Source: Acidimicrobiales bacterium
Lineage (GTDB): Bacteria; Actinomycetota; Acidimicrobiia; Acidimicrobiales; SZUA-35
Assembly: GCA_965216675.1 (NCBI GenBank)
Contig: CBDCGK010000004.1
Coordinates: forward strand, 2,055,692 to 2,119,691
Length of the DNA stretch: 64,000 nt
Direction: 5' to 3'
Notes under the pieces: model-generated
The model's database searches: none
Seen by the model: only the letters and a program-made list of their open reading frames with translations
Told to the model about the DNA's origin: nothing
Part shown: in pieces, positions 5,663 through 12,516 of the stretch
How the letters are laid out: each line of letters starts with the position of its first letter
Position numbering within the stretch: the first letter of the stretch is position 1
Position numbers and translations under genes: made by a program

Positions 5663-5896
5663 CGACGCGATCTGTGACCGACGTCATGGTCGGACATCCT
5701 TGACTTCAACCTCACTTGAAGCCTTACGGTCGTAACCGTTGAACGAGGCTCAAACGAAAGGGAGTCAGCCATGTTCGGTTCCGATCAACTCGCACTCGAT
5801 CTCGCCCGGCAGTTCCGCAACGACGCGGAACGCCGGGCGGCCAATCACCGCCTGATCCAGGGTCTGTCGTCCGATGAACGGTCCGGAAACCGGCTA

Positions 5897-6841
5897 CTAC
5901 GTGTAGTCGTCGGGTAGTGCCGTGAACGCCTGCATGCAGCCGGGGCCGCAGAAGTACACGGTGGCCCCCTTGTGCTCGACGTGCAGCGACGCCGGCACTG
6001 CCGCGACCGTCATACCGCACACCGGATCGACCGATGTCTCGACCACGGGTTCGTTGGATGGTGCCCGATGGTCGTGATGTTCCAGGTCACCGGCGTCGAC
6101 ATCGGTCACGGGTCGAGGACGTACCGCGATGACCTCGGCCAGAATCGACAGTGCGATCTCCTCGGGAGTCTGGGCCCCGATGTCGAGTCCTGCGGGCGTG
6201 TGGACCCGCAGCCGGTGCTCGTCGGACAAGCCGAGCGATCCCAGTACGGCATCACCCCGACGTCGGCTTGCGACGAGCCCGATGTAGTCCACGCCGGCGT
6301 CCAGCGCCACGGTCAGCGCCGCCTCCTCACCCCGCCCGTGCGAGGCCACCACGACCGCCGACACGTCGCTGGGCAGCGGCTCCGGCAGGTCGTCGACCAG
6401 ACGTAGATCGAAGCCGAAGAGCCCGGCCCCCCGGTTGAGAGCCAGCGCGATCGGGCTGGTGCCGATCGTGTACACCAGTGCCGGCGGGACGATGGGTTCG
6501 AGGAAGATCTCCAGTGTCCCGCCCGACAGGCACGGATTGGCCACGGTCCGCTGTCCGACCGGGTCGTCCGGCGGCTCACCGCCGCCGGACTCACCGACGA
6601 TACGCAGAAGCAGCGACGCCCCCCGCTCGAGGCAGCCGAGGGCCTCGACCCGCACCGAGCTCTCGGCGCAGGCCCCGCCGACGAACCCCTCGATGTCGCC
6701 GTTTGGCAGGACGATCGCGGTGTCGCCGGCCTTGGCCGAGGTCGGCCGCTCGGCTCGGACCACCGTGGCCGACACGAACGGCACCCGCGTCGCCCGCAAC
6801 TCGATGGCCCGCCCGTCGGCCAGACCGCGCGTGATGCTCAC
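5897..6841 (-). CDS. XdhC/CoxI-family molybdoenzyme maturation protein fused to a C-terminal YHS/TRASH-type metal-binding domain
   Basis: XdhC_CoxI N-domain (VVRAERPTSAKAGDTAIVLPNGDIEGFVGGACAE). XdhC Rossmann-like C-domain (IGTSPIALAL...DYIGLVASRRRG). Terminal VDPVCGMTV...VYFCGPGCMQAF matches the YHS pattern. Lies directly downstream of coxL. Confidence 0.8.
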   Translation of the reverse strand: MSITRGLADGRAIELRATRVPFVSATVVRAERPTSAKAGDTAIVLPNGDIEGFVGGACAESSVRVEALGCLERGASLLLRIVGESGGGEPPDDPVGQRTVANPCLSGGTLEIFLEPIVPPALVYTIGTSPIALALNRGAGLFGFDLRLVDDLPEPLPSDVSAVVVASHGRGEEAALTVALDAGVDYIGLVASRRRGDAVLGSLGLSDEHRLRVHTPAGLDIGAQTPEEIALSILAEVIAVRPRPVTDVDAGDLEHHDHRAPSNEPVVETSVDPVCGMTVAAVPASLHVEHKGATVYFCGPGCMQAFTALPDDYT

Positions 6842-6922
6842 GACCCGACCACCCCCACCGTTCTGCCGTTGACCGACGTCGCTGAGCGACGCGGGACGGC
6901 GGCAGAACAGGTTTGCCGGGGG

Positions 6923-9337
6923 TCAGTCATCGGTGATGGCCAGGTCGGTGCGGAAGCTCCGACCCTGCATGGCCCGCCACACCTGGGCCGGGGTGCAGGG
7001 CATGTCGATGTCTTTGACATTGAACGGGGCCAGCGCATCGACGATGGCGTTGATCACGGCCGGCGGCGAACCGACTGTGGCCGACTCCCCCACCCCCTTC
7101 ACTCCGAGCGGGTGATGGGGCGACGGGGTGACCGTCTCCCCCGTCTCCCACGACGGACACTCCATCGAGGTCGGCAACAGGTAGTCCATGAACGAGGTGC
7201 CGAGACAGTTGCCGCCGGGGTCGAAGGCGATGACCTCCATGAGGGCCATGCCCACACCGTCGGCCAAACCGCCGTGGACCTGGCCCTCGACGATCATCGG
7301 GTTGATCCGGGGGCCGCAGTCGTCGACGGCGATGAACCGGCGGACCTTGACCTCGCCCGTTCCCCGGTCGATGTCGACCACGCAGATGTAGCAGCCGAAC
7401 GGGTAGGTGAGGTTGGGCGGGTCGTAGACGCATTGGGCGTCGAGCTGACCCTCCACCCCTTCCGGCAGCTCCAGCGGACCGTGGGCACCGAGCGCCACCT
7501 CCTGGATCGTGACCGACTTGTCGGGCGAGCCCTTCACCGTGAACACCCCGGTGTCGAACTCGAGGTCGTCGGGGTTGGCCTCCATCATGGTGGCCGCGAT
7601 GATCTTGGCCTTGTCGACCACCCGTCGGGAAGCCACGGCCGCCGCCGCCCCGGAGACCGGGGTCGAGCGGGAGCCGTAGGTTCCCAGACCAAAGGGGGTG
7701 TTGTCGGTGTCGCCGTGGACCACGTCGATGTCGGCGGTCGGGATGCCGGTCACGTGCGACACGATCTGGGCGAACGTGGTCTCGTGGCCTTGCCCCTGGG
7801 TCTGGACCGAGAGGCGGACGACGGCCTTGCCGGTCGGATGGACCCGCACCTCGCAGCCGTCGGCCATGCCGAGCCCGAGGATGTCCATGTGTTTGCGGGG
7901 GCCGGCGCCGACGGTCTCGGTGAAGAACGAGACCCCGATGCCCATCAGTTCGCCGCGCTCACGCTTGGCCGCCTGCTCGGCCCGGAGCTCGTCATAGCCG
8001 GCGATCTCCATCGCCTTCTGCAAGGCGGCCGGATAGTTACCCGAGTCGTACTCCCAACCGGTCGGCGAGTGATACGGGAACTGGTCGGGCTGGATGAAGT
8101 TCTTCATCCGCAGCTCGGCCTCGTCGATCCCGAGGTCGTCAGCCAGACGCTTGATCATCCGCTCGATCAGGTACACCGCCTCGGTCACCCGGAACGAGCA
8201 GGCGTAGGCCACGCCGCCGGGCGCCTTGTTGGTGTAGACGCCGGTGACCTTGCAGTGGGCGGCCGGGTAGTCGTAGGACCCGGTGAAGACGTGGAAGAAG
8301 CCGGCCGGAAACTTGGTGGGCTGAGCGGTGTTGTTGAACGCCCCGTGGTCGGCCAGCACGTCGACCTTCACGCCCAGGATCTTGCCCTCGGACGTGGCGG
8401 CGATCTCGCCGTGCATGTGGTAGTCACGGGCGAACGCGGTGGAGATCAGGTTCTCCGACCGATCCTCCATCCACTTGACCGGCTTCTTGGTCACGATCGA
8501 GCCGACCACCGACAGCACGTAGCCCGGATAGATGCCGACCTTGCCGCCGAACCCGCCGCCGATGTCGGGCGAGATGACCCGGATCTTGTGCTCCGGCAAC
8601 CCGGCCACCAACGCGTAGACCGTGCGGTGGGCGTGCGGGGCCTGAGTGGTGCACCACAGCGTGAGTTTGCCCTCGACCGGGTCCATGTTGGCCACCGACC
8701 CGCAGGTCTCCAGCGGCGCCGGATGGACCCGGGGGTAGAGGATGTCCTCGGTGACGACCACGTCGGCTTTGTCGAACTGGGCCTGGGTGGCGGCGGCGTC
8801 GCCCGACTCCCAGTCGAAGATGTGGTTGTCGGTCTTGCCCTCGATGTCGGTGCGGATCACCGGCGCGCCGTCGTCGAGCGCGGTGCGGGCGTCGACGACG
8901 GGATCGAGCTCCTCGTATTCGACGTCGATCAACTCCAGGGCGTCACGGGCCGCGTAGTGGTCTTCGGCGATGACGAACGCCACCTCCTGACCCTGGTAGC
9001 GGACCTTGTCGGTGGCCAGGATGGCGATCACATCATGGCTGAGGGACGGGGCCCAGGCCAGGTTCAGCGTCTCCAACACGGCACCGGTGATGACGGCCAC
9101 CACCTTGGGGTGGGCTTCGGCCGCGGAGGTGTCGATGTTGACGATGTTGGCGTGGGCCACCGGGCTGCGCAGCACGGCGCCGTGCAACATGCCGGGCAGT
9201 TTGATGTCGTCGAGGTAGTTGCCCTTACCCCGAACGAAGCGCACGTCCTCTTTGCGAGGTGTTCGACCGAAGCCGACTGTGGCCTCCTCGGTGAACGTGT
9301 CCGAGGACGTGGTTGGTGGGTTCTCGGTGACGGACAT
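6923..9337 (-). CDS. coxL: Aerobic carbon monoxide dehydrogenase large (molybdopterin) subunit, form-I-type
   Basis: 804-aa xanthine-oxidase-family Mo subunit. The active-site loop GGVAYACSFRV fits the form-I AYXCSFR signature. Gene order M-S-L. Confidence 0.9.
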   Translation of the reverse strand: MSVTENPPTTSSDTFTEEATVGFGRTPRKEDVRFVRGKGNYLDDIKLPGMLHGAVLRSPVAHANIVNIDTSAAEAHPKVVAVITGAVLETLNLAWAPSLSHDVIAILATDKVRYQGQEVAFVIAEDHYAARDALELIDVEYEELDPVVDARTALDDGAPVIRTDIEGKTDNHIFDWESGDAAATQAQFDKADVVVTEDILYPRVHPAPLETCGSVANMDPVEGKLTLWCTTQAPHAHRTVYALVAGLPEHKIRVISPDIGGGFGGKVGIYPGYVLSVVGSIVTKKPVKWMEDRSENLISTAFARDYHMHGEIAATSEGKILGVKVDVLADHGAFNNTAQPTKFPAGFFHVFTGSYDYPAAHCKVTGVYTNKAPGGVAYACSFRVTEAVYLIERMIKRLADDLGIDEAELRMKNFIQPDQFPYHSPTGWEYDSGNYPAALQKAMEIAGYDELRAEQAAKRERGELMGIGVSFFTETVGAGPRKHMDILGLGMADGCEVRVHPTGKAVVRLSVQTQGQGHETTFAQIVSHVTGIPTADIDVVHGDTDNTPFGLGTYGSRSTPVSGAAAAVASRRVVDKAKIIAATMMEANPDDLEFDTGVFTVKGSPDKSVTIQEVALGAHGPLELPEGVEGQLDAQCVYDPPNLTYPFGCYICVVDIDRGTGEVKVRRFIAVDDCGPRINPMIVEGQVHGGLADGVGMALMEVIAFDPGGNCLGTSFMDYLLPTSMECPSWETGETVTPSPHHPLGVKGVGESATVGSPPAVINAIVDALAPFNVKDIDMPCTPAQVWRAMQGRSFRTDLAITDD

Positions 9338-9339
9338 GT

Positions 9340-9852
9340 TCAGGCACCTTCCCCGTTGGCGCTGTGTTCAGCCGCCCAACGAATCGATCGGATGATGTTC
9401 TCGTAGCCGGTGCAGCGGCACAGGTTGCCGGAGATGGCCTCCCGGATCTCGGCTTCGGACGGATCGGGGTTGGCATCGAGCAGCGCCCGGCCGGTCATCA
9501 TCATCCCCGGCGTGCAGAACCCGCACTGCAGGCCGTGACACTTCATGAAGCCCTCCTGCACCGGGTCGAGACCGTCCTCGGTCTCCAGGTCCTCGACGGT
9601 GCGGACCTCGTGCCCACCGGCCATGGCGGCCAGCATCGTGCACGACTTGACCGGCTCTTTGTCGACCCAGACCACACAGGCCCCGCAGTTGGAGGTGTCG
9701 CAGCCCCAGTGCGTGCCGGTCAGGTCGAGGTGGTCTCGCAGGAAGTGCACGAGCAGGAGGCGGGGCTCGATGGTCTTGGTGACGTCGGTGCCGTTGACGT
9801 TGACCGTCACCTCCATCGTCGGTGTTTCCAGCATCTCGGAGATGTCGGTCAT
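9340..9852 (-). CDS. coxS: CO dehydrogenase small subunit ([2Fe-2S] x2)
   Basis: Motifs [24 protein letters not shown] and [11 protein letters not shown]. The start is set at ATG 9852 (MTDISEM), preceded by GGAAGGGAG. The stop is 2 nt before the coxL start. Confidence 0.9.
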
Positions 9853-9949
9853 TGGGCTCCCTTCCTGCCCCACACGGCAGATTCCAGCCAGCGACGTTTC
9901 GCCGACAGGCGAAACTCGGTTAGCAACGGCTCCGGCGTTGCGGCGGTCA

Positions 9950-10852
9950 TCAGTCGGCGCTCCTGTCGTCATCATAAGCACCGGCGCCGACGAGGGCCCG
10001 ACGCATCGCCCGCTTGGTCAACTCACCGGCCAGGTGGCGTTTGTAGTCGGCCGGACCCCGCTGGTCGGTGTTGGGGTTGGTGGCCTGGGCCGCCAGTTCA
10101 CCGACGTGTTCGACCAGGGTCTCGTTGGCCACCTGACCCCGGGCGGCATCCTCGGCAGCGGCGGCCACGAAGTGGGGAGCCTCGACCGCGGTGAGGCCGA
10201 TGCCGATCTCGGCGATGGTGTCGCCGTCGAGCCACAGCGCCACACCGGCGGCGGCGATGGCCCAGTCGCCGACCCGGCGCTCCACCTTCTCATAGGCCGA
10301 GCAGCCGCCCGGCCGGACGGGAACGGTGACCTCGGTGACCATCTCGTTCTCACCGACCACGGTCTGGTAGGGGCCGTCGTGGAACTCCCGCACCGGCACG
10401 GTGCGAGCTCCGTCGGGACCGATGATGTGCACGGTGGCCCGGACGGCGGCGAACGCCGCCGACAGATCCTCGGCCGGATCGGCCTGACACAGTGATCCAC
10501 CGACCGTGCCCCGGTTGCGCACCACCGGGTCGGCGATAACCCGCTCCGCCTCGGCGAAGATCGGATAGTGCTCGGCCACGACAGCGGAATCGAGGAGCTG
10601 GGCGTGGCGGACCATTGCCCCGATCCTGATCACGTCGCCGGCATCTCCCGATTCCAGGCTGATGTCGGACAGTCCCTCGACGTCGTTGATGTCGATCAGC
10701 GCCGTCGGAGCGGCGAAGCGGAGCTTCATCATCGGCAACAGACTGTGGCCCCCCGCCACCAGCCTTGCCTCGGAGCCGTGTTCGGCGAGCAACTCCAACG
10801 CATGGGTCACGCTGGAAGCCCGCTCGTACACGAACGGTGCCGGTACCTGCAT
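9950..10852 (-). CDS. coxM: CO dehydrogenase medium (FAD-binding) subunit
   Basis: The C-terminal 300 aa of ORF 9950..11629 start at [22 protein letters not shown] and contain [13 protein letters not shown] (FAD_binding_5 type). The upstream part of that ORF is Arg/Pro-rich junk. Confidence 0.85.
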
Positions 10853-10954
10853 ATTCGGTTGTCCCCTTCTCGTCGTCGAGCACCGCCCGCAGATGCTTGA
10901 AGCGGCAAGCAACGAGGTTAGCTGTCCGGTTCGATTCCGGCCAGACGGCGCGGA

Positions 10955-10990
10955 CTGCGCATGACACTGCGCATGACACTGCACATGACA
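10955..10990. repeat. Three tandem 12-bp direct repeats (CTGCGCATGACA x2, CTGCACATGACA) about 100-140 nt upstream of coxM
   Basis: Read directly from the sequence: ctgcgcatgaca ctgcgcatgaca ctgcacatgaca. Intergenic, between the beta-helix gene stop (11071) and the coxM start (10852). Confidence 0.8.
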
Positions 10991-10994
10991 AGGT

Positions 10995-11030
10995 GAAGCA
11001 GAATCGGTCGATATCGGCCGGTTCTGCTTC
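10995..11030 (-). terminator. Stem-loop (9-bp perfect arms GAAGCAGAA/TTCTGCTTC, with an inner CGATATCG palindrome) downstream of the beta-helix gene
   Basis: Inverted repeat read directly. It lies 41 nt after the stop at 11071 on the minus strand. There is no U-tract, so its function as a terminator is an inference. Confidence 0.45.
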
Positions 11031-11070
11031 ATGGTCGGGCTGCCGGGGCCCGAACCGGAGGCCGGCGGCG

Positions 11071-12516
11071 CTACGGGGCGCGGTGACCGTAGCTCGTGGC
11101 GTCGGGATTGGTGGGGACGTAGTTGCCGTCGAGCCGGGGGTCGATTTGACGGTTGCCGCCGCCATCGGTCAACTTGTCGGCGTTCTCGACCACGCCGGCG
11201 GAGTCCCAGCCGATGTTGTTGCGCACGATGTTGTTTCCCCCACCGCTGAGATGGCGGCCGGTGACGTTCGACAACCCGTCCTTCGGGGACACCAGGAGGT
11301 TCCGCTCGATGGTGATGTTCGACGTCTTGTAACTCAGCTGGATGTTCGACGGTCCGGTGTTGTCGACGATGGTGTTGTAGCGGATCTTCACGTTGGCGAT
11401 GCTCGGATAGCTGTCGTTCGGCGTCCCGACCTTGATGCCCCGCCCGTTGGACGAGCCGACCAGCAGGTTGCGCTCGATGACGCCGCCACCGCTCCCGCAG
11501 TTGCAGTAGATCAGGTGGTCCTGGTGGGTGCCGTTGGATCGGTAGGTGTCGTGAACATGCACGTCCCGGACGGTGAAGTTGACCGGCGACCCGACGATCA
11601 GCAGACCGCTGTAGCCCCGCGCCCCCCACACCTCGGCCTGCTCGAACACCCAGTCGCGACCGTTCTTCAGCAGCACCATGTGCTCGGACGAGCTGTTGCG
11701 GTCGTCCCAGGTCACGTTGATGCCCCGGATCGTCCAGTAGTCGATGTTGTAGAGGTTGAGCAGGCCCTTCACCACGACCCGCTCGCCGGGGGCCGCCTGA
11801 ACGAGGATCCGGCGGCTGGACGAGGTGTTCTTGCCGCCGACCCCGAGCTGGATCCGCTCCCGGTACTCGCCGCCCTTGACGATCAGCGTCTGACCGGCCT
11901 TCACCTCGTCGAGGCCTTTGGTGAGCGTGTTGTAGGGCGCCCCCTGTGACCCGTTTCCACCCGACGACGCGCTGCTGTCGACGTAGATCACGTCGCCACT
12001 CGGTGGTGGCAGCTCCGAGGTTGTCATGGTCTGTCGAGTCGTCGTGGTCTGCTGAACCGTCGTGGCCGCTCCCGTGCTGGACGTCGTGGCTCGCAACGTC
12101 GACACGGTGGACGAGCTGGTCGGTGCCGTGGAGGTGGATGCCGTGTTGGGAGACGCCGTGGAACTCGATGCCGTGTTGGAGGAGGCCGTGGAGGTCGTTG
12201 GATCGGGCGAGGTACTCGATGACGTATCGGACGCGGTGGTAGTCGGGTTCGTGTCGGTGACGTCGAGATCGACACCCTGACCGTCGTCGTCCGCCAGCAC
12301 TCGGAGCGACTCCGCATCGCCCTCGTCGCCGACGCCGATGGCGACAGTGGCCTCCGGTGACGGAGTGTCGCTGGCCAACTCAAAGGAGCCACCGGACGAG
12401 CTCGTTCCCGAGCAACCAGCGGCGAGCATCGCGAACACGGCCAGCGCGACCAGAGCGCCTCGCCGACGGTCATCACCGCCTGCCAGGCTCCGCCGCCTCG
12501 GTTCCAGTCGCCGCAT
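11071..12516 (-). CDS. Secreted lipoprotein with a right-handed parallel beta-helix (pectate-lyase/CASH-like) domain
   Basis: The start is set at ATG 12516 (MRRLEPRRR...ALAVFAMLAAGCSG, with lipobox LAAGC). A long S/T-rich linker follows. Then VIYVDSSASSGGNGSQGAPYNTLTKGLDEVKAGQTLIVKGGEY and repeated beta-helix turns (IERNLLV...NTIVDN...IERNLLV). Confidence 0.7.
   Translation of the reverse strand: MRRLEPRRRSLAGGDDRRRGALVALAVFAMLAAGCSGTSSSGGSFELASDTPSPEATVAIGVGDEGDAESLRVLADDDGQGVDLDVTDTNPTTTASDTSSSTSPDPTTSTASSNTASSSTASPNTASTSTAPTSSSTVSTLRATTSSTGAATTVQQTTTTRQTMTTSELPPPSGDVIYVDSSASSGGNGSQGAPYNTLTKGLDEVKAGQTLIVKGGEYRERIQLGVGGKNTSSSRRILVQAAPGERVVVKGLLNLYNIDYWTIRGINVTWDDRNSSSEHMVLLKNGRDWVFEQAEVWGARGYSGLLIVGSPVNFTVRDVHVHDTYRSNGTHQDHLIYCNCGSGGGVIERNLLVGSSNGRGIKVGTPNDSYPSIANVKIRYNTIVDNTGPSNIQLSYKTSNITIERNLLVSPKDGLSNVTGRHLSGGGNNIVRNNIGWDSAGVVENADKLTDGGGNRQIDPRLDGNYVPTNPDATSYGHRAP

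What the first reader, a model, noticed from the sequence alone, without database searches (positions are those of the whole stretch)
5897..6841. XdhC/CoxI-type maturation factor fused to a YHS (TRASH-type) metal-binding domain, immediately downstream of a Mo-Cu CO dehydrogenase
Form-I CODH needs copper inserted into its [CuSMoO2] site. In model carboxidotrophs this involves CoxD/E/F. Here the only accessory gene next to coxMSL is an XdhC/CoxI-family protein. Its last ~45 aa (VDPVCGMTVAAVPASLHVEHKGATVYFCGPGCMQAF, DNA about 5900-6035) match the YHS pattern found in copper-handling proteins. A covalent fusion of a Mo-cofactor chaperone to a putative Cu-binding module is a plausible dedicated Cu-delivery device.
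Basis: partly seen in the sequence, partly recalled or inferred. Interest (0 to 1): 0.6.

Follow-up and report, generated by a model that had tools for sequence, protein, structure and literature searches.

The report
CoxF maturation factor with copper-type YHS domain
The last gene of this aerobic carbon-monoxide dehydrogenase operon is the CoxF-type maturation factor carrying a tethered Cys-rich YHS/TRASH metal-binding domain, a fusion that in the genomes sampled sits next to the copper-containing (form I) enzyme and is a testable candidate for the long-sought copper donor.

Summary
Window 5897-6841(-) encodes a 314-aa protein with three Pfam domains: XdhC_CoxI, XdhC_C and a C-terminal YHS domain. 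The YHS domain has the motif D272-x2-C275-x-M277...C298-x3-C302. The gene lies 81 nt downstream of a form-I coxMSL operon (CoxL over the TIGR02416 cut-off, motif VAYACSFR).

This is the orthologue of CoxF, not something other than CoxD/E/F. CoxF is the XdhC-family factor already proposed to supply copper in Oligotropha carboxidovorans, whose own CoxF lacks YHS.

The fusion is widespread: Actinomycetota, Chloroflexota, Burkholderiaceae and a haloarchaeon.
- Of 123 CoxF-type genes examined, 120 keep the Asp/Cys/Met/Cys/Cys motif.
- Apart from six loci cut by a contig end, each lies beside a CoxL with AYxCSFR or in a genome that holds a form-I coxL.
- None of 20 other XdhC paralogues carries YHS.
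- The genome's form-II cluster has no such gene.

This specificity favours a copper-linked role, most likely Cu(I) capture and hand-over through a flexible linker. Metal binding was not tested. No searchable paper links XdhC or CoxF with YHS. The genome has coxD/E pairs elsewhere.

Verdict: a real feature, a new variant of a known kind, of moderate interest.

The parts
9950..10852 (-). coxM, FAD-binding medium subunit of form-I CO dehydrogenase
   Evidence: Pfam FAD_binding_5 and CO_deh_flav_C. The start is taken at the Met of MQVPAPF within the long ORF 9950..11629.
9340..9852 (-). coxS, [2Fe-2S] small subunit (start codon uncertain)
   Evidence: Pfam Fer2 and Fer2_2. The ORF is 9340..9981. 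The likely start is the Met of MTDISEM.
6923..9337 (-). coxL, Mo-Cu large subunit of form-I CO dehydrogenase. The VAYACSFR motif (A377-R383) holds Cys380, the predicted Cu ligand.
   Evidence: TIGR02416 scores 1312 bits against a cut-off of 991. It is the only CoxL over the cut-off in the genome. A377, Y378, C380, S381, F382 and R383 are invariant in 29 CoxL sequences.
6842..6922 (-). coxL-coxF intergenic spacer that folds into a long hairpin covering the purine-rich stretch before the GTG start
   Evidence: strand folding on 6835-6930(-): -52.2 kcal/mol, z = -3.9, 0 of 200 shuffles fold as well. No intrinsic-terminator or sigma-70 promoter match.
5897..6841 (-). coxF-type XdhC-family maturation factor with C-terminal YHS domain (314 aa plus stop codon)
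6602..6796 (-). XdhC_CoxI N-terminal domain (residues 16-80), with invariant Cys58 in GGxCAE
   Evidence: Pfam PF02625, 55.6 bits. Invariant columns.
6131..6472 (-). XdhC_C Rossmann-like domain (residues 124-237)
   Evidence: Pfam PF13478, 77.3 bits. AF2 pLDDT is above 90. The closest solved folds are 2WE8/2WE7 and 3ON5.
6038..6118 (-). Disordered linker (residues 242-268) with a His-rich patch LEHHDH
   Evidence: AF2 pLDDT is 47-64 across residues 245-267. Columns vary in length and composition. The PAGxDxG-to-DPVC distance ranges from 39 to 97 aa across 96 homologues.
5903..6031 (-). YHS/TRASH domain (residues 271-313): D272-P-V-C275-G-M277 ... F-C298-G-P-G-C302
   Evidence: Pfam PF04945. 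The spacing C-x22-C-x3-C is read directly from the sequence. The domain model has pLDDT 91.8 and resembles the YHS domains of diiron monooxygenase alpha subunits and eL24.

Best explanation
The gene encodes the CoxF-type member of the XdhC family, the accessory factor of form-I (Mo-Cu) CO dehydrogenase that acts at the copper-insertion step. Its XdhC core (residues 1-240) is inferred to dock on CoxL that is folded and Moco-loaded but still lacks copper, and to shield the sulfurated molybdenum. Its C-terminal YHS/TRASH domain is inferred to capture Cu(I) with Cys275, Cys298 and Cys302, probably helped by Asp272 and Met277. The domain hangs on a disordered tether of about 27 residues and would hand the ion to the Mo-SH / Cys380 (AYACSFR) site, completing the [CuSMoO2] cluster. 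Shown here: the domain architecture, CoxF orthology, conservation of the ligand set, the flexible linker, and restriction of the fusion to form-I cox contexts in the genomes sampled. Inferred: copper as the metal, the direction of transfer, and contact with CoxL. The unlinked coxD/coxE genes of this genome may still be needed for the preceding sulfuration and reduction steps.
For: - Architecture and fold.
- CoxF orthology: the best pHCG3 match is coxF, which sits after coxD and coxE, not coxI. The tree places all YHS proteins and O. carboxidovorans CoxF in one clade against CoxI, with SH-aLRT 99. In Paraburkholderia the YHS protein occupies the CoxF slot, coxMSL-G-D-E-[XdhC-YHS].
- Function of CoxF: coxF and coxE mutants of O. 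carboxidovorans could not use CO, and their inactive apo-enzyme was studied. The authors propose that CoxF supplies Cu (PMC4240915).
- Specificity, first sample: in 401 Actinomycetota genomes, about 75 full-length fusion hits lie directly downstream of a CoxL over the TIGR02416 cut-off. All 40 loci fetched from them carry [VI]AY[RA]CSFR.
- Specificity, second sample: of 80 named loci, 71 have a same-strand upstream CoxL with AY.CSFR. Six are cut by a contig end, one is divergently oriented to a form-I operon, and two are unlinked but in genomes that hold a form-I coxL.
- Controls: 0 of 20 XdhC paralogues elsewhere carry YHS. This genome's form-II coxSLM-coxDE cluster (AYRGAGR) has no XdhC-YHS.
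- Argument from the controls: sulfuration and Moco insertion are needed by all xanthine-oxidase-family enzymes (established knowledge of the XdhC family). A domain restricted to the copper-containing member therefore points to copper.
- Ligand set: Asp at C-3 in 113 of 114 sequences, Met at C+2 in 114 of 114, and C-x22-C-x3-C in 112 of 114. The same Asp plus three Cys are the proposed copper ligands of the Cu-activated YHS adenylyl cyclase of M. phlei (PMC4626032).
- His-rich patch in the linker of this subclade.
- A minimal coxMSL plus XdhC-YHS cluster also occurs in Thermomicrobium roseum, which has been reported to use CO (PMC6776052).
Against: - No metal-binding data exist for any CoxF YHS domain.
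- YHS/TRASH folds are not copper-specific. The YHS domain of toluene-4-monooxygenase is metal-free in crystals, and eL24 binds Cd through its cysteines (PMC4626032).
- The model organism's CoxF works without YHS, as do CoxF of Bradyrhizobium betae and Roseivivax and of two genomes in family f47. In Deinococcus sp. AJ005 two of the three Cys are replaced. The domain is therefore dispensable in some lineages.
- The CODH copper site is reached only through a substrate channel (PMC4240915 describes the channel), so how a folded domain would deliver an ion there is unclear.
- The Pfam score of this particular sequence is only 1 bit over the cut-off.
Confidence: 0.55

Rival explanations
1. The YHS domain senses copper rather than donating it. 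Cu binding switches the XdhC core on, so that maturation proceeds only when copper is available. The ion that enters CODH comes from another source.
For: The only YHS domain with functional data found in the papers searched here, the M. phlei adenylyl cyclase, behaves as a Cu-dependent switch (PMC4626032). The association with form I fits sensing as well as delivery.
Against: The long, variable, disordered linker of 39-97 aa and the tandem duplication of the domain in L085 suit a swinging carrier better than an allosteric switch. The cyclase linker is only 8 residues. CoxF is already tied genetically to copper supply (PMC4240915).
Confidence: 0.15
2. The YHS domain is a structural Zn- or Fe-binding, or metal-free, module for protein-protein docking onto CoxL, CoxD/E or the membrane. 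It has no role in handling copper.
For: The closest solved folds are the YHS domains of diiron monooxygenase alpha subunits and ribosomal eL24, where the fold is structural. The toluene-4-monooxygenase YHS domain carries no metal (PMC4626032). Thirteen of 114 homologues have a fourth Cys (FCC), which would suit a tetrahedral Zn site.
Against: A generic docking module would not be expected only on the XdhC paralogue that serves the copper-containing enzyme. The invariant Met two residues after the first Cys, and the Asp, are ligand-type positions. The linker of this subclade has a His-rich patch.
Confidence: 0.15
3. The three cysteines relay sulfur as a persulfide. They would build the mu-sulfido bridge of the cluster, extending the known link between XdhC proteins and cysteine desulfurase.
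For: XdhC proteins assist Moco sulfuration and interact with a NifS-like desulfurase (summarised in PMC4240915 and PMC2997495). Conserved Cys residues could carry a persulfide.
Against: Mo=S sulfuration is also needed by xanthine dehydrogenases and other family members, yet their XdhC paralogues lack YHS (0 of 20). In O. carboxidovorans sulfuration is assigned to CoxD, not to CoxE or CoxF (PMC4240915). The conserved Asp and Met have no obvious role in persulfide chemistry.
Confidence: 0.07

Closest known systems
CoxF of Oligotropha (Afipia) carboxidovorans OM5, plasmid pHCG3
   Same: Both are XdhC-family proteins (XdhC_CoxI plus XdhC_C) encoded in a form-I cox cluster. They fall in the same clade against CoxI, with 35-36% identity over the core. 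CoxF is genetically required for CO use, and its authors propose it as the copper supplier (PMC4240915).
   Different: O. carboxidovorans CoxF is 280 aa and ends after the core, with no YHS domain. Its authors invoke a different putative Cu motif and phytase activity. There coxF follows coxD and coxE. Here the gene directly follows coxL, and coxD/E are unlinked.
CoxI / Rv0376c-type XdhC homologues (solved structures 2WE7 and 2WE8 from M. smegmatis; 3ON5 from B. halodurans)
   Same: Same fold for the core (Foldseek E 1e-13 to 1e-11). Same two Pfam core domains.
   Different: A separate clade. Usually encoded upstream of coxM or elsewhere. Never seen with YHS in the loci examined.
YHS/TRASH metal-binding domains (Pfam PF04945): N-termini of Cu-ATPases, the M. 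phlei adenylyl cyclase, diiron monooxygenase alpha subunits, ribosomal eL24
   Same: About 45 residues with a DPVCGM...FCxxxC signature and the TRASH spacing C-x22-C-x3-C. Small beta-hairpins plus a helix. The Asp plus three Cys set is the one proposed for Cu binding in the cyclase (PMC4626032).
   Different: Here the domain is fused to a molybdenum-cofactor chaperone through a long disordered tether. No structure or metal analysis exists for this subgroup.
R. capsulatus XdhC / E. coli PaoD (Moco-insertion chaperones of the xanthine oxidase family)
   Same: Family membership, and the inferred role in protecting and inserting sulfurated Moco (PMC2997495).
   Different: These serve copper-free enzymes and have no YHS domain.

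Membership tests
XdhC family (Pfam XdhC_CoxI + XdhC_C) | Both Pfam domains score above their gathering cut-offs | tested here: met
   PF02625 scores 55.6 bits against 24.3, and PF13478 scores 77.3 against 29.7.
XdhC family (Pfam XdhC_CoxI + XdhC_C) | Fold like solved XdhC-type proteins | tested here: met
   The AF2 model (pLDDT 88.7) matches 2WE8/2WE7 and 3ON5 at E 1e-13 to 1e-11.
CoxF subgroup (CODH copper-step maturation factor) | Closer to CoxF than to CoxI | tested here: met
   The best pHCG3 hit is coxF. The CoxF clade is separated from CoxI with SH-aLRT 99.
CoxF subgroup (CODH copper-step maturation factor) | Encoded in a form-I coxMSL cluster | tested here: met
   The gene lies 81 nt downstream of coxL on the same strand.
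CoxF subgroup (CODH copper-step maturation factor) | Required for Cu insertion into CODH | not testable with these tools
   Needs genetics and metal analysis. Known only for O. carboxidovorans (PMC4240915).
YHS/TRASH domain (PF04945) | Profile match above the gathering cut-off | tested here: met
   31.4 bits against 30.3, which is marginal; 35.6 bits. All 33 homologues match, best E 1.5e-11.
YHS/TRASH domain (PF04945) | TRASH cysteine signature C-x19-22-C-x3-C with a preceding Asp | tested here: met
   D272, C275, 22 residues, C298, three residues, C302. These positions are invariant. Asp is present in 113 of 114 homologues, and the C1-C2 spacing is 22 residues in 112 and 21 in 2.
YHS/TRASH domain (PF04945) | YHS/TRASH fold | tested here: inconclusive
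   The domain model has pLDDT 91.8. The top Foldseek hits are YHS domains of phenol hydroxylase, ToMO and sMMO, and eL24, with TMq 0.5-0.7. All E-values exceed 0.2 because the domain is only 53 residues.
YHS/TRASH domain (PF04945) | Binds a transition metal (Cu) | not testable with these tools
Form-I aerobic Mo-Cu CO dehydrogenase (neighbouring coxL) | TIGR02416 above its cut-off, AYXCSFR active-site loop, gene order M-S-L | tested here: met
   1312 bits against 991, motif VAYACSFR, order coxM-coxS-coxL.

The most novel reading that the evidence does not exclude
YHS-CoxF is a self-contained two-metal chaperone. The single protein would both guard the sulfurated Mo cofactor and insert Cu(I), so that coxMSL plus this one gene is a sufficient module for making active Mo-Cu CODH. 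Such minimal clusters are seen here, in Thermomicrobium roseum, and in 11 of the 80 named loci. The YHS-less CoxF with CoxD/E and phytate chemistry of the alphaproteobacterial model organism would then be a derived special case rather than the general mechanism.
Probability: 0.2. Interest if true: 0.75.

Novelty: new variant of a known kind. Interest (0 to 1): 0.52.

Why it matters
How copper reaches the buried [CuSMoO2] site of aerobic CO dehydrogenase is unresolved. This enzyme underlies bacterial consumption of atmospheric CO. The only model comes from O. carboxidovorans, whose CoxF has no recognisable metal-binding domain.

This report shows that in Actinomycetota, Chloroflexota and Burkholderiaceae the orthologous factor carries a conserved Asp/Cys/Met/Cys/Cys module on a flexible tether, and a haloarchaeal example does too. 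It also shows that the module tracks the copper-containing form of the enzyme. That gives a concrete, mutable candidate copper site. It also suggests the model organism may be atypical, and it could help efforts to produce active Mo-Cu CODH in other hosts.

The gene itself is one ordinary member of a very large family that is annotated only as "XdhC family protein".

Tried and rejected
- Complex prediction of CoxL (residues 25-804) with the YHS domain (collected) returned "no answer". It is not used as evidence either way.
- Search for sequencing runs: no RNA holder is listed, so expression and co-transcription could not be examined.
- Sequence search of the PDB with the tail alone gave only weak hits, E 0.4-1.7.
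- Literature searches for XdhC+YHS, 'carbon monoxide dehydrogenase'+'TRASH domain' and 'YHS domain'+molybdenum found nothing relevant. The M. smegmatis CODH structure paper does not mention CoxF, CoxI or XdhC.
- I considered that partial alignments ending near residue 241 in G269, G252 and G332 meant YHS-less proteins. Fetching the DNA showed that G269 and G252 do carry YHS after a long linker. G332 was not fetched.
- I considered G287 a counter-example, a fusion without form-I coxL. The locus turned out to be a decayed cox operon with coxL fragments that include VAYRCSFR.
- I looked for a split-off YHS gene or a remnant beside the YHS-less CoxF of G243 and G256. None was found; mocA follows directly.
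- The NCBIfam hit to XdhC_rel_AOR (90 bits against a cut-off of 350) was rejected as a family assignment.

Full report
**The sequence**

Window 5897..6841 on the minus strand is an open frame of 314 codons starting with GTG. Its homologues start at the same place.

Pfam finds three domains:
- XdhC_CoxI at residues 16-80, 55.6 bits.
- XdhC_C at residues 124-237, 77.3 bits.
- YHS (PF04945) at residues 271-313, 31.4 bits against a cut-off of 30.3.

The YHS score is marginal for this one protein, but several results show it is real. The six-frame genome search gives 35.6 bits. All 33 aligned homologues match PF04945, with a best E of 1.5e-11. D272, P273, V274, C275, M277, F297, C298, G299 and C302 are invariant. 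The spacing C275-x22-C298-x3-C302 is the TRASH signature.

AlphaFold2 models a confident XdhC core (residues 1-240, pLDDT above 90), a disordered linker (245-267, pLDDT 47-64) and a confident small domain (268-314, pLDDT about 93). Folded alone, the domain has pLDDT 91.8.

The core resembles the solved XdhC-type proteins 2WE8/2WE7 and 3ON5. The small domain resembles the YHS domains of phenol hydroxylase, toluene/o-xylene monooxygenase and methane monooxygenase alpha subunits, and ribosomal eL24. TMq is 0.5-0.7, but the E-values are weak because the domain is only 53 residues.

**Context in the window and genome**

Directly upstream on the same strand lie coxM, coxS and coxL. CoxL scores 1312 bits on TIGR02416 (cut-off 991) and carries VAYACSFR, the form-I signature. 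It is the only CoxL in the 5.65-Mb genome over that cut-off.

The XdhC-YHS gene is the last of the operon, and the next gene converges on it.

The genome is not short of other accessory genes:
- Two coxD/coxE pairs, at C4:341598-344004 and C4:1442050-1444219. The second follows a form-II coxS-L-M cluster with AYRGAGR.
- coxG plus mocA at C4:279656-281256.
- A CoxI-like XdhC at C4:713217-714372.

None of these has a YHS domain. The only other YHS match in the genome is in an unrelated 609-codon frame.

**What the protein is**

[quoted passage not shown] The best match of the window protein on plasmid pHCG3 is the gene after coxD and coxE, which is coxF, not coxI.

I built a maximum-likelihood tree of 47 XdhC cores with the YHS columns removed. 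It puts every YHS-bearing protein and O. carboxidovorans CoxF in one clade, separated from CoxI with SH-aLRT 99. CoxF pairs with the YHS-bearing protein of Paraburkholderia (support 85).

In Paraburkholderia aromaticivorans the YHS protein sits exactly in the CoxF slot: coxMSL-coxG-coxD-coxE-[XdhC-YHS]-mocA-x-coxI.

The gene is therefore a CoxF orthologue. YHS-less CoxF proteins are nested among YHS-bearing ones, so they look like losses. They include Afipia at 280 aa, Bradyrhizobium betae at 280 aa, Roseivivax at 259 aa, and two of the four sampled genomes of family f47.

**How specific the fusion is**

I searched the same 401 Actinomycetota genomes with the protein and with TIGR02416.
- About 75 full-length hits reach the YHS domain.
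- Read side by side, they lie 30-120 nt downstream of a CoxL over the form-I cut-off, on the same strand. The exceptions coincide with contig breaks.
- These tallies include the unpublished genomes G088 and G120, which show the same adjacency. G336 contributes only a non-fusion hit. None of the three was fetched, and removing them changes nothing.

I then fetched 40 of these loci and scored them by script.
- Every XdhC-YHS gene is next to a CoxL with [VI]AY[RA]CSFR.
- Only G243 and G256 lack the domain.
- G287, which had no TIGR02416 hit, turned out to be a decayed cox operon.

A separate scan of 185,579 species genomes gave 568 relatives. Of the best 80, all Actinomycetota:
- All 80 keep the motif.
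- 71 have the upstream form-I CoxL.
- Six are cut by a contig end, and a CoxL C-terminal fragment is visible.
- One is divergently oriented to a form-I operon.
- Two are unlinked, but their genomes hold a form-I coxL.

As a control, 20 XdhC paralogues elsewhere in these genomes have no YHS at all.

Outside the phylum:
- 120 of 120 best Burkholderiaceae homologues carry the three domains. Some are already named "YHS domain protein" or "CoxF", among them two from P. xenovorans LB400.
- 119 of 120 best Chloroflexota homologues carry them: Thermomicrobium, Thermorudis, Sphaerobacter, Chloroflexia and Anaerolineales.
- Single loci in Thermomicrobium roseum, the haloarchaeon Natronorubrum bangense and Deinococcus sp. 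AJ005 sit in form-I clusters.
- The Deinococcus copy has lost two of the three Cys.

**Mechanism**

In O. carboxidovorans, coxE and coxF mutants cannot use CO and were studied as an inactive apo-enzyme. Its authors propose that CoxF supplies the copper (PMC4240915).

The YHS domain of the M. phlei adenylyl cyclase makes that enzyme copper-activated. One Asp and three Cys are the proposed ligands (PMC4626032).

The CoxF YHS domains keep exactly that set, plus an invariant Met two residues after the first Cys. The counts are Asp 113/114, Met 114/114, and C-x22-C-x3-C 112/114. The linker varies in length, and the distance from the core PAGxDxG motif to DPVC ranges from 39 to 97 aa. One MAG has two YHS domains in tandem. 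The Acidimicrobiia subclade has a His-rich patch just before the domain.

[quoted passage not shown] Only form-I CODH needs copper, and only its XdhC paralogue carries this domain.

The most economical reading is therefore a tethered Cu(I)-binding arm that feeds the Mo-SH / Cys380 site while the core holds CoxL. This is inference. No metal binding, contact or transfer was shown. The domain is dispensable in some lineages.

The rivals, scored separately, are copper sensing, a structural Zn or docking module, and a persulfide relay. The persulfide idea fits least well, because other XdhC paralogues lack YHS and sulfuration is assigned to CoxD in the O. carboxidovorans model.

**Novelty**

The architecture is visible in precomputed Pfam annotations and in a few database names. 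I found no paper that holds XdhC together with YHS, or CO dehydrogenase together with the TRASH domain. Recent CODH work does not mention it.

Published gene maps call the gene after coxL either coxF or coxI without comment.

The window's gene is thus one member of a large, unremarked variant of a known maturation factor. Its value is that it offers a defined candidate copper site for an unresolved assembly step.

Noticed in passing
window 6842-6922 (- strand): The 81-nt spacer between the coxL stop and the coxF-YHS start folds into one long hairpin (-52.2 kcal/mol, z -3.9). It pairs the purine-rich GGUGGGGGUGG just before the GTG start. This may lower translation of the chaperone relative to the enzyme subunits. 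Conservation in relatives was not checked.
   Followed up: partly
window 6068-6085 (- strand; residues 253-258): A His-rich patch (LEHHDH) sits in the disordered linker just before the YHS domain. Similar His runs occur in the closest Acidimicrobiia homologues (EHHDH, HHHH, HHH), which is suggestive of auxiliary metal capture.
   Followed up: partly
window 5771-5917 (+ strand): A small convergent ORF with a strong Shine-Dalgarno (AAAGGGAG) overlaps the 3' end of the coxF-YHS gene (seen). It was not examined further.
   Followed up: no
L085:5974-7356 (Sporichthyaceae MAG, DATAUG010000123.1): This CoxF carries two tandem YHS domains, each with C-x22-C-x3-C. It is divergently oriented to its form-I coxMSL.
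   Followed up: partly
L063 (G287:C5:277000-296000): A whole form-I cox operon has decayed into frameshifted fragments of coxM, coxS, coxL (including VAYRCSFR) and a truncated XdhC-YHS. It lies next to an intact form-II cluster.
   Followed up: partly
P0214 (565 aa, JGI metagenome): A triple fusion of XdhC_CoxI, XdhC_C, YHS and NTP_transf_3 (PF12804, MocA-like cytidylyltransferase). It links the copper-step factor physically to synthesis of the MCD cofactor.
   Followed up: no
own genome C4:1442050-1448225: A form-II-type cluster, coxS-coxL(AYRGAGR)-coxM-coxD-coxE, with MoxR/VWA partners but no XdhC gene. A second orphan coxD/coxE pair lies at C4:341598-344004.
   Followed up: partly
L022:7980-9041 (Deinococcus sp. 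AJ005 plasmid p380k): The CoxF-position protein keeps a YHS-like tail, but the first Cys is Asp and the second is Thr (SPVDGEEI...YYFTCANC). The site is degenerate.
   Followed up: no
L064 (Acidimicrobiales MAG, JBFHEP010000122.1), the closest relative at 78% identity: Here XdhC-YHS is not next to coxMSL. The form-I coxL lies on another contig of the same MAG. The upstream genes were not identified.
   Followed up: partly
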